Assembly (NCBI RefSeq): GCF_009914755.1
Contig: NC_060935.1
DNA length: 64,000 nucleotides
Reading direction: 5' to 3' (one strand)
Origin: the human T2T-CHM13v2.0 reference genome, Homo sapiens
This document shows positions 3,885 through 4,319 of this stretch, one piece after another; within the stretch, counting starts at the first letter, position 1; the number at the start of each line of letters is the position of its first letter. Both the position numbers and the translations under genes were made by a program. The notes under the pieces are model-generated. The model was not told the DNA's origin. It worked only from the letters and a program-made list of their open reading frames with translations, and ran no database searches.

Positions 3885-4083
3885 CTCCGGCAGAGTGAAT
3901 ACATCCTGTTGGAGGCAGTAATTCTAAAATACTCGGGTCTTGAACGGGAAGAGCTGCCACTTATGGTTCCTAAACCTAAACGCTGATAGTCTCTGAAACA
4001 AGCTTTTTCCACCAACTGTTCCATTGTAGACTTCTCGGAGGCCTTCAGGGTGGTACTTGTGGGGAGCTCACTCTCATCTGAAA
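3885..4083 (-). CDS. SBF2: SBF2 coding exon, 199 nt, (V)[38 protein letters not shown]...NRMYSLCR(S); start of myotubularin-like domain (phase 1-2)
   Basis: catcacag|TT acceptor, GAG|gtaagt donor; RDYQRLG and NRMYSLCRS resemble the myotubularin N-terminal segment. Confidence 0.96.
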
Positions 4084-4319
4084 CTGTGATGGTAGAGACA
4101 GATATCGAAGAAATGATTAGCTCAAAGCAATTGAGGTCTTCAGGGTAGTACCTGTGGGGAGCTCACTCTCATCTGAAACTGTGATGGTAGAGACAGATAT
4201 CAAAGAAATGATTAGCTCAAAGCAATTGAGGCCTTCAGGGTAGTACCTGTGGGGAGCTCACTCTCATCTGAAACTGGGATGGTAGAGACAGATATTGAAG
4301 AAATGATTAGCTCAAAGCA
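4038..4319. repeat. Tandem triplication of a 95-bp unit spanning the exon acceptor
   Basis: Units start at 4038, 4133 and 4228 (gagg(c/t)cttcagggt...ctcaaagca). Confidence 0.97.

What the first reader, a model, noticed from the sequence alone, without database searches (positions are those of the whole stretch)
4038..4319. Triplicated exon acceptor whose extra copies gained a donor: predicted in-frame 27-nt microexons
Seen: a 95-bp unit (46 nt of exon start plus 49 nt of intron end) occurs three times. On the gene strand each copy keeps the branch-like gCTAAT at about -34, the pyrimidine tract and CAG, giving extra acceptors at 4178 and 4273 upstream of the real one at 4083. Both extra copies share a change from exonic CCCACAAGTACC to CCCACAG|GTACTA. 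This is nearly identical to the donor used at 20845 (CAG|gtacca). It defines segments 4152-4178 and 4247-4273 of exactly 27 nt, phase 1 to phase 1. Inference: inclusion adds one more VSDESELPT to the acidic Ser-rich linker between the GRAM and pseudophosphatase domains. Using an upstream acceptor without the new donor would instead hit a stop (...[13 protein letters not shown]) and likely trigger NMD, so the donor could rescue a harmful duplication. Adjacent copies are only 68 nt apart, with about 34 nt from donor to branch point, which suggests steric exclusion. The 4247-4273 copy (163-nt downstream intron) is therefore the most plausible microexon. Standard aligners would miss it because the reads multi-map.
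Basis: partly seen in the sequence, partly recalled or inferred. Interest (0 to 1): 0.85.

Follow-up and report, generated by a model that had tools for sequence, protein, structure and literature searches.

The report
Triplicated splice acceptor in SBF2
A 95-base piece spanning the start of one SBF2 exon is present three times in a row, which leaves two spare splice acceptors in the intron, but nothing available here shows that the proposed 27-base mini-exons are ever included in the mRNA.

Summary
Window 4038-4322 is a 95-bp unit repeated three times. Each unit is 49 nt of intron 25 end plus 46 nt of SBF2 exon 26 start. Each copy keeps a CTAAT branch-like motif at -34, an AG-free tract and CAG. 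Copies 2 and 3 share CAA|GTACCA changed to CAG|GTACTA, which delimits identical 27-nt, phase 1 to phase 1 segments encoding VSDESELPT. An older partial exon-26 copy at 1639-1701 acts as an outgroup and shows the G is derived.

Use of these segments is unproven. Of the 17 RefSeq SBF2 mRNAs, 0 contain such an exon.

On a matrix trained on 387 curated chr11 donors, the new donor sits at the 5th percentile, and 435 of 3,365 GTs in the window score as well. A stronger GT at +12 in every copy was overlooked. Forty-nine equally good acceptor/donor pairs occur in the window. About 3-8% of neutral histories would produce such a donor.

The best reading is an old duplication leaving decoy acceptors, with the microexon as a minor possibility. 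RNA data and primate genomes were not available.

The parts
3885..4083 (-). SBF2 exon 26 of 40 (NM_030962.4). It is 199 nt, starts in phase 1 at codon 1086, and is used by 16 of 17 annotated SBF2 mRNAs.
   Evidence: translation. Acceptor 7.02 bits (22nd percentile); donor GAG|gtaagt 11.64 bits (93rd percentile).
4038..4132 (-). Repeat copy 1: the last 49 nt of intron 25 (4084-4132) plus the first 46 nt of the real exon 26 (4038-4083).
4133..4227 (-). Repeat copy 2, with 4 of 95 differences from copy 1. It carries spare acceptor 4178.
4228..4322 (-). Repeat copy 3, with 7 of 95 differences from copy 1, 3 of them at the outer end where the original flank begins. It carries spare acceptor 4273.
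4247..4273 (-). Candidate 27-nt in-frame segment of copy 3: acceptor 7.45 bits, donor CAG|gtacta 3.71 bits. A 163-nt intron would follow, down to 4083.
   Evidence: Not in any annotated transcript.
4152..4178 (-). Candidate 27-nt in-frame segment of copy 2, identical in sequence to the copy-3 segment. A 68-nt intron would follow, down to 4083.
   Evidence: The 68-nt length is at the annotated minimum.
4262..4273 (-). Alternative 12-nt in-frame segment of copy 3, ended by the stronger GT donor AGA|gtgagc. The same motif is at 4167-4178 in copy 2 and 4072-4083 inside the real exon.
   Evidence: 5.55 bits, 19th percentile of real donors.
4116..4120 (-). Branch-like CTAAT, 4th base at -34 of acceptor 4083. 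Repeated at 4211-4215 and 4306-4310.
   Evidence: The motif fits the yUnAy consensus, which is recalled. Branch use was not tested.
4146..4273 (-). Terminal exon of Gnomon model XM_054370092.1. It uses acceptor 4273 and reads through both the copy-3 donor and the copy-2 acceptor. The coding part is 4212-4273, and the stop TAA at 4212-4214 lies inside the copy-2 CTAAT.
   Evidence: No AATAAA-type signal in 4273..4106.
1639..1701 (-). Older partial copy of the exon-26 5' part (exon bases about +10 to +73), lying in intron 26. It was used as the outgroup to polarise the two shared changes.
   Evidence: (86% identity, E 2e-10). Not in a masked repeat.

Best explanation
This is a two-step tandem duplication of the intron 25/exon 26 junction of SBF2 (MTMR13). 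It is probably tens of millions of years old, and it left two spare copies of a working 3' splice site inside intron 25.

Normal splicing uses the most downstream copy (4083). Only that copy is continuous with the other 153 nt of exon 26 and its strong donor, so exon definition pairs that donor with the nearest acceptor.

The two upstream copies act as decoy acceptors. When they are used, the product mostly reads through to a stop. That gives either a decay-prone transcript or the truncated 1105-aa model already in RefSeq.

Weak GT sites at +27 (improved by a derived A>G at -1) and at +12 could turn a fraction of such events into in-frame +27 or +12 products. These would be trace by-products rather than an established microexon.

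Shown: the repeat, the site sequences, the frames, the direction of the A>G change and the state of the annotation. Inferred: the order of duplication events, the age, the exon-definition argument and the low usage.
For: - Repeat and site identity.
- Annotation: 16 of 17 SBF2 mRNAs use 4083, 1 of 17 uses 4273 as a read-through terminal exon, and 0 of 17 hold a 27-nt exon.
- The real exon's donor is strong (93rd percentile), while its acceptor is only at the 22nd percentile. This fits recognition through the downstream donor.
- The new donor is at the 5th percentile. Only 2 of the 260 GTs scoring 3-4.5 bits in the window are annotated donors.
- 49 acceptor/donor pairs at least as good lie 3-51 nt apart on this strand of the window. 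19 of them also have a branch-like motif, and 14 of those 19 are outside the repeat.
- The tree is (copy 1, (copy 2, copy 3)), with 2 shared and 2+2 private changes. Both junctions carry the same AATT and the period is exactly 95, so the third copy was made from the first junction.
- Age estimates: copy 2/copy 3 split 22-43 Myr (95% CI 6-111); first duplication 43-87 Myr (CI 12-223).
- Persistence fits tolerance of the decoys. SBF2 disease is recessive (recalled), the same argument Hellsten et al. make for ATP2A1.
Against: - The spare acceptors are near-perfect copies of a proven acceptor, including the branch motif, the tract and the first 26 exonic nt. Sequence alone cannot show they are rarely used.
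- SBF2 itself uses donors as weak as the new one: 20845 at 3.61 bits and 11342 at 3.78 bits.
- A Gnomon model uses acceptor 4273, so some use may be real.
- The matrix is a simple position matrix trained on GC-rich, gene-dense stretches. It ignores enhancers and silencers.
- The age rests on 4 substitutions, 2 of them at a CpG, and on recalled rates. No other primate genome could be read.
Confidence: 0.6

Rival explanations
1. One reading: one or both 27-nt segments are real, in-frame microexons. They add one or two VSDESELPT units to the linker before the pseudophosphatase domain at a meaningful level in some tissue, and the A>G donor was retained because it rescues use of the spare acceptors.
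For: - The segments are exactly 27 nt, phase 1 to phase 1 and stop-free.
- The G is derived and raises the donor from 0.39 to about 3.6 bits.
- An equally weak donor works at 20845.
- 16 of 160 curated chr11 microexon contexts have a downstream intron <=163 nt.
- The linker differs in length between SBF2 and its paralogue SBF1, so an insertion is likely tolerated.
- The 27-nt copies are identical, so reads would be ambiguous and a real isoform could have been missed.
Against: - 0 of 17 annotated mRNAs contain it.
- The donor is at the 5th percentile, and 13% of GTs in the window are as good.
- A stronger donor at +12 competes with it.
- No UGC lies between the branch motif and the AG (read; the motif's role in neural microexons is recalled).
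- 0 of 160 microexon contexts have a 68-nt downstream intron.
- Chance alone gives about 3-8%.
- No paper was found.
Confidence: 0.12
2. The spare copies are completely silent, and the RefSeq model using 4273 is a mapping artefact. The first 26 nt after all three acceptors are identical. Normal exon 25-26 junction reads with a short overhang would therefore align equally well to 4273 (the shortest intron), and intronic pre-mRNA coverage would supply the rest of the modelled exon.
For: - 26 identical bases follow each acceptor.
- The model is Gnomon-only, and its 3' end at 4146 has no poly(A) signal upstream.
- All 6 curated NM_ transcripts use 4083.
Against: The evidence behind the Gnomon model could not be seen. 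Exact copies of a working acceptor are unlikely never to be used.
Confidence: 0.18
3. The spare acceptors serve a regulated purpose. They could dose SBF2 through unproductive splicing and decay. Alternatively, they could make a truncated 1105-aa protein that keeps the DENN and GRAM parts but lacks the pseudophosphatase, coiled-coil and PH parts.
For: - XM_054370092.1 encodes exactly such a protein.
- Two further Gnomon models (XM_054370090.1 and XM_054370091.1) also truncate just after exon 26.
- The array appears to have persisted for a long time.
Against: - These are predicted models only.
- There is no poly(A) signal.
- The new C-terminal peptide is read from intron sequence, and its stop lies in a branch-like motif.
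- No literature was found.
- Persistence is equally expected for a neutral element.
Confidence: 0.07
4. The triplication is specific to this haplotype or assembly (a copy-number variant or an assembly error) rather than a fixed feature of the human gene.
For: With a 95-bp period and 3 copies, this is the form of a minisatellite. Copy number in other genomes could not be checked.
Against: The copies differ from one another at 4 internal positions each, including independent CpG decay at the same CpG. That is not what a recent expansion or an assembly duplication looks like.
Confidence: 0.05

Closest known systems
Intron creation by short intragenic tandem duplication (Rogers model; Hellsten et al. 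2011, PMC3265369; abstract and Discussion read)
   Same: A short tandem duplication inside a gene supplies duplicate splice signals in one step. The new structure can be spliced inefficiently at first and still be tolerated in a gene whose disease is recessive. Later point changes can improve the sites.
   Different: In that case an exonic AGGT is duplicated, so both the donor and the acceptor of the new intron come from the duplication, and the protein is unchanged. Here the duplicated piece carries an existing acceptor. The donor arises later by a point change, the outcome would be a new mini-exon plus a new intron, and the protein would gain 9 residues. Splicing was shown experimentally there and not here.
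Microexons (cassette exons of 3-27 or 3-30 nt)
   Same: The size is 27 nt, a multiple of three. The location is a surface linker next to a domain. An architecture with a short downstream intron exists for 16 of 160 curated chr11 cases.
   Different: Inclusion has not been shown. The donor is weak. No UGC lies between the branch motif and the AG. Conservation was not tested. Known microexons are usually old and conserved (recalled), whereas this one would be lineage-specific.
Decoy or pseudo 3' splice sites, and alternative acceptors coupled to nonsense-mediated decay
   Same: Upstream acceptors whose use adds 95 or 190 nt (both out of frame) and a stop. One such event is in RefSeq as a predicted model.
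   Different: Most decoys are chance matches to the consensus. These are exact paralogous copies of the authentic site, including its branch motif and exonic start.
Alternative exons born by tandem exon duplication (Kondrashov and Koonin 2001; Letunic et al. 2002; both recalled, not read here)
   Same: A tandem copy of exon sequence inside the neighbouring intron that could be spliced in and repeat a peptide.
   Different: Only the first 46 nt of a 199-nt exon was copied, without its donor. The copy is therefore not a ready-made exon.
Intronic minisatellite (VNTR)
   Same: A head-to-tail array with a 95-bp period, 3 copies and no indels.
   Different: It overlaps a coding exon boundary. Polymorphism could not be tested, and the copies have diverged by about 4%.

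Membership tests
Microexon | An internal segment of <=27-30 nt bounded by an AG acceptor and a GT donor | tested here: met
   4247-4273 and 4152-4178: acceptors 7.45 and 7.02 bits, donor CAG|gtacta 3.71 bits. This holds at motif level only.
Microexon | Included in mature mRNA | not testable with these tools
   No reads were available. As a proxy, 0 of 17 RefSeq SBF2 mRNAs contain it, and no paper mentions it. Paper supplements were closed.
Microexon | Preserves the reading frame | tested here: met
   27 nt, phase 1 to phase 1, no stop; the peptide is VSDESELPT.
Microexon | Strong or specially enhanced splice signals, such as UGC close to the 3' splice site for neural microexons (feature recalled) | tested here: not met
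   The donor is at the 5th percentile of 387 real donors. The only TGC upstream lies 5' of the branch motif, and none lies between CTAAT and CAG (read).
Microexon | Conservation across species | not testable with these tools
   No primate or mammalian genomes were available. The protein word search with the 65-aa exon returned nothing, because it is limited by query length.
Intron or exon birth by tandem duplication | A head-to-tail duplication with a recognisable junction inside a gene | tested here: met
   Three 95-nt units, the same junction twice, no indels.
Intron or exon birth by tandem duplication | Both splice sites of the new intron supplied by the duplicated AGGT | tested here: not met
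   The acceptor is a copy of an existing one. The donor needed a later A>G at -1, since the ancestral CAA|gtacca scores 0.39 bits.
Intron or exon birth by tandem duplication | The new intron is spliced in vivo | not testable with these tools
   No RNA data.
Decoy or alternative 3' splice site with unproductive outcome | An acceptor-quality site upstream of the authentic one whose use introduces a premature stop | tested here: met
   The acceptor scores equal that of the authentic site. +95 and +190 are out of frame, and read-through gives ...ALS*. One predicted model uses 4273.
Decoy or alternative 3' splice site with unproductive outcome | Measured use and NMD sensitivity | not testable with these tools
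   No RNA data.
Minisatellite / VNTR | A tandem array with a period of 10-100 bp | tested here: met
   Period 95, 3.0 copies.
Minisatellite / VNTR | Copy number varies between individuals | not testable with these tools
   There was no pangenome access. The SBF2 + VNTR paper search gave 2 papers, both judged irrelevant from title and abstract start only; neither was opened.

The most novel reading that the evidence does not exclude
A lineage-specific exon and intron caught at birth in a neuropathy gene. Tandem copying of a working acceptor, followed by a single A>G, made a 27-nt cassette. Its inclusion repeats the acidic VSDESELPT unit once or twice in the MTMR13 linker just before the pseudophosphatase domain. 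Read mapping would hide it, because the copies are identical.
Probability: 0.12. Interest if true: 0.6.

Novelty: new member of a known kind. Interest (0 to 1): 0.3.

Why it matters
- If the mini-exon were real, it would be a clean, datable example of exon and intron birth from a duplicated acceptor plus one point change, in a gene mutated in Charcot-Marie-Tooth disease type 4B2 (disease link recalled).
- Even if it is not, the array has practical weight. The authentic exon 26 acceptor and the first 46 coding bases of that exon exist in three near-identical copies. By my count, those bases start at coding nucleotide 3257. Short DNA and RNA reads there are ambiguous.
- Variant calls and splice-junction counts at this boundary can therefore be misplaced. 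At least one predicted RefSeq isoform (XM_054370092.1) may owe its existence to that ambiguity.
- A variant that strengthens a spare site or weakens the authentic one could shift splicing to an out-of-frame acceptor.

Tried and rejected
- Protein databases. The 65-aa translation of exon 26 found no named protein. The tool only sees proteins 0.55-1.75 times the query length. Full-length SBF2 or its XP_ isoforms could not be queried, because a spliced protein would be a joined sequence. The blank therefore says nothing about isoforms with a duplicated VSDESELPT.
- PDB sequence search with the same piece gave 0 hits at E<=1.
- Pfam on single exons. Only PF12335 (exon 19, E 1.9e-17) passed its cut-off. 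GRAM in exon 22 was below cut-off (20.1 vs 23.6 bits). Exon 26 gave no myotubularin hit. The domain start was instead placed by a genome-wide PF06602 search, which put profile positions 54-102 in exon 27.
- Rfam on 3000-5500 gave no family, so no RNA gene explains the repeat.
- Processed pseudogene carrying the junction. The genome search with 3885-4322 found only the locus itself and the old partial copy. There is therefore no retrocopy to test past splicing.
- Literature. Searches were SBF2+microexon (1 paper; judged irrelevant from its title and abstract start, not opened), SBF2+VNTR (2), MTMR13+alternative splicing+isoform (11), SBF2/exon 26/intron 25/pseudoexon/cryptic splice (580 papers held at least 2 of the 5 terms; none of the 20 listed contained SBF2), VSDESELPT (0) and SBF2+sQTL (3). 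In one of the sQTL papers I checked the passage, which only names a GWAS variant. Nothing on this repeat or isoform was found. Supplementary tables were closed, and microexon or sQTL lists in them could bear on this.
- Selection for the donor. I rejected this as a necessary inference after counting that 7 of 285 single-base changes create a donor >=3.6 bits, and 4 of the 285 also leave it in frame and stop-free.
- Alu involvement. The Alu-like masked repeat at 4335-4626 lies 13 nt from copy 3, but a 95-bp unit is not a target-site duplication. I rejected this by reasoning only.
- MaxEntScan and SpliceAI were not available. I used my own position matrix instead. It was trained on 387 GT donors (390 found, 3 GC donors dropped) and 405 acceptors from twenty 10-kb gene-dense chr11 stretches. 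It is biased towards GC-rich genes.

Full report
What is there. On the minus strand the window carries SBF2. TRF finds one array at 4038-4319 with period 95, 3.0 copies, 95% matches, no indels and score 522. The repeat finder puts three in-register 95-nt copies at 4038-4132, 4133-4227 and 4228-4322. Read on the gene strand, each unit is 49 nt of intron end followed by 46 nt of exon start. Copy 1 contains the authentic acceptor of the exon at 3885-4083. This is exon 26 of 40 in NM_030962.4, starting in phase 1 at codon 1086. Each copy has CTAAT with its fourth base at -34, no AG between that motif and the CAG, and the same first 26 exonic bases.

Copies 2 and 3 differ from copy 1 at two shared positions. 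These turn CAA|gtacca into CAG|gtacta. The resulting segments 4152-4178 and 4247-4273 are identical, 27 nt long and stop-free. With the last base of exon 25 they read VSDESELPT. Read-through from 4273 gives ...[13 protein letters not shown]. The donor at 20845 is CAG|gtacca.

What the annotation already says. The annotation file has 17 SBF2 mRNAs. Sixteen use acceptor 4083, including all six curated NM_ records. One, the Gnomon model XM_054370092.1, uses acceptor 4273 as the start of a terminal exon, 4146-4273, with coding part 4212-4273. None uses 4178, and none has a 27-nt exon. The model's 3' end has no AATAAA-type signal upstream. The stop TAA at 4212-4214 lies inside the copy-2 CTAAT. I could not see the evidence behind the model. 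Because 26 bases after each acceptor are identical, ordinary exon 25-26 junction reads with short overhangs would fit 4273 as well as 4083. The model may therefore be an artefact. That is an inference.

Direction and age of the changes. A genome-wide search with 3885-4322 found only the locus itself and a 64-nt match at window 1639-1701: same strand, 86% identity, E 2e-10. It corresponds to exon 26 bases about +10 to +73, has no similarity in the intron part, and is not in a masked repeat. At the two diagnostic positions it has A before GT and C at +5, like copy 1. The G and the T are therefore derived on the common stem of copies 2 and 3.

With that polarity the tree is (copy 1, (copy 2, copy 3)), with 2 stem changes, 2 private to copy 2, 2 private to copy 3 and 0 in copy 1. 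Two of the private changes are independent decays of one CpG, to TG in one copy and to CA in the other. Both internal junctions read the same (…CCTC AATT GCTT…), whereas the original flank upstream of copy 3 differs. The third copy was therefore made from an existing two-copy array.

Using recalled rates of 0.5-1.0e-9 per site per year, the copy 2/copy 3 split comes out at 22-43 Myr (95% CI 6-111). The first duplication comes out at 43-87 Myr (CI 12-223). These figures rest on four substitutions and include CpG sites, so they are orders of magnitude only. No other primate genome could be read.

How good are the sites? MaxEntScan and SpliceAI were not available. I built position matrices from curated (NM_) splice sites in twenty 10-kb gene-dense stretches of chr11: 387 GT donors (3 GC donors dropped) and 405 acceptors.
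- The spare acceptors score 7.02 (4178) and 7.45 (4273), against 7.02 for the authentic one. These fall at the 22nd-26th percentile of real acceptors. 153 and 115 of 4,425 AGs on this strand of the window score at least as high.
- The new donor scores 3.71, the 5th percentile of real donors. 435 of 3,365 GTs (13%) in the window do as well. Its ancestral form scores 0.39.
- In the 3-4.5 bit bin there are 260 GTs, of which 2 are annotated SBF2 donors. Those two (20845 at 3.61 and 11342 at 3.78) show that SBF2 can use such donors, but only behind exons of 263 and 128 nt.
- All three copies also hold a better GT at +12, AGA|gtgagc: 5.55 bits, 19th percentile. It would give a 12-nt in-frame segment and, for copy 2, an 83-nt intron. 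Annotation shows no use of it inside the real exon.
- Pairs of an acceptor >=7.0 and a donor >=3.6 lying 3-51 nt apart occur 49 times on this strand of the window, 25 of them with a length of 27 nt or less. 19 also have a yTnAy motif with an AG-free zone, and 14 of those 19 are outside the repeat.

Motif strength alone therefore does not single out these segments. What does single them out is that the acceptor half is a copy of a site known to work.

Geometry. Of 13,409 curated chr11 introns, 15 are <=68 nt (several are 1-52 nt and look like annotation gaps; four are exactly 68 nt) and 1,473 are <=163 nt. 117 of 10,266 internal exons are <=27 nt. Among 160 curated contexts of 3-27-nt internal exons (91 genes), none has a downstream intron <=70 nt and 16 have one <=163 nt. 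The copy-2 segment with its 68-nt intron is at the floor.

Was the donor selected? Of the 285 single-base changes to a copy-1-like unit, 7 create a new donor >=3.6 bits, and 4 of the 285 also leave it in frame and stop-free. With 2 stem substitutions that is about 3% by chance. With all 6 substitutions seen in the spare copies it is about 8%. This is suggestive at most, and the test is post hoc.

Protein context. Exon 25 ends ...WNEDDDVS, and exon 26 reads (V)[38 protein letters not shown].... Exon 22 gives a weak GRAM hit (E 6.1e-4, 20.1 bits, below the 23.6 cut-off). A genome-wide PF06602 search places profile positions 54-102 in the next exon downstream, at chr11:9916654-9916800. Exon 26 alone gave no Pfam or PDB hit. 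This is partly shown and partly taken from the known architecture. The paralogue SBF1 has its acceptor at the same codon position, and its linker differs in length. The boundary is therefore old, and the linker tolerates indels.

Most likely mechanism. The authentic acceptor is only middling (22nd percentile), while the donor 199 nt downstream is strong (93rd percentile). Under exon definition (established model, recalled), that donor recruits the nearest upstream acceptor, which is copy 1. The spare copies are 294 and 389 nt from that donor. Their only nearby GTs are 12 and 27 nt away, closer than is usual for joint recognition of both ends of an exon (recalled; microexons make up about 1% of internal exons). 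I therefore expect the spare acceptors to be used rarely. The products would be mostly out-of-frame (+95, +122 or +190) and degraded, with +27 or +12 forms as trace by-products. The gene's disease is recessive (recalled), so some loss to unproductive splicing would be tolerated. Hellsten et al. make the same argument for a duplication-born intron that splices at 6-16% (PMC3265369, Discussion read). My confidence in this is about 0.6. The microexon reading stays open at about 0.12.

Comparison with what is known. The closest described mechanism is intron creation by short tandem duplication (the potato case PMC4974935 was seen only as a listing). It differs from this case in three ways:
- The duplicated piece here carries an existing acceptor rather than an AGGT.
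- The donor came later, by a point change.
- The result would be a new exon plus a new intron that lengthens the protein.

As a microexon candidate, it meets the size and frame criteria, fails the signal-strength criterion, and is untested for inclusion and conservation. As a decoy acceptor pair, it meets the sequence criteria. I found nothing in print on this repeat, on an SBF2 microexon, or on a VNTR or splicing QTL at this site. Supplements were closed.

Verdict. The feature is real and neatly structured, and one of its consequences is already in RefSeq. It is an instructive but ordinary kind of event: a tandem duplication of a splice junction. The eye-catching claim of in-frame microexons is arithmetically right, mechanistically possible, weakly signalled and untested. 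Interest 0.3.

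Noticed in passing
window 1639-1701 (minus strand): A 64-nt older partial copy of the 5' part of exon 26 sits about 2.2 kb downstream, in intron 26 (86% identity, E 2e-10). It has no similarity in the flanks and is not in a masked repeat. How an exon-only fragment got there is unexplained.
   Followed up: partly
window 4072-4083, 4167-4178, 4262-4273 (minus strand): Every copy, including the real exon, has a GT at +12 (AGA|gtgagc, 5.55 bits, 19th percentile). It is stronger than the +27 donor and would give a 12-nt in-frame segment. No annotated use.
   Followed up: partly
window 4212-4214: The stop codon of the truncated RefSeq model XM_054370092.1 is the TAA inside the branch-like CTAAT of repeat copy 2.
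   Followed up: yes
window 4129-4132 and 4224-4227: Both internal repeat junctions carry the same four bases (AATT on the gene strand), which do not match the original flank upstream of copy 3. They look like filler from the first duplication, copied by the second.
   Followed up: no
window 4335-4626, with an A-run at 4640-4658: An Alu-like masked repeat, antisense to SBF2, begins 13 nt upstream of copy 3. No link to the duplication was found.
   Followed up: no
window 3802-3884 and 1-3801: Two Gnomon models (XM_054370090.1 and XM_054370091.1) splice exon 26 across an 83-nt intron to an acceptor at 3801 and stop after 25 coding bases. Together with the 4273 model, this makes three predicted truncations clustered at this exon.
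   Followed up: no
window 7156, 14605, 18099 (acceptors); 20845, 11342 (donors): Several constitutive SBF2 sites score very low on the chr11-trained matrices: three acceptors at the 2nd percentile and two donors at the 5th-6th. Either the gene relies on weak sites, or the GC-rich training set under-scores AT-rich genes.
   Followed up: no
G000 chr1:11422158-11423400 (+) and chr8:55828081-55829453 (-): Two intronless-looking myotubularin-like stretches. The chr1 stretch matches PF06602 at 158.6 bits with 2 in-frame TAG stops. The chr8 stretch has open frames of 199-539 aa, with stops in one of its matched pieces, and resembles SBF1. They are probably processed copies.
   Followed up: no
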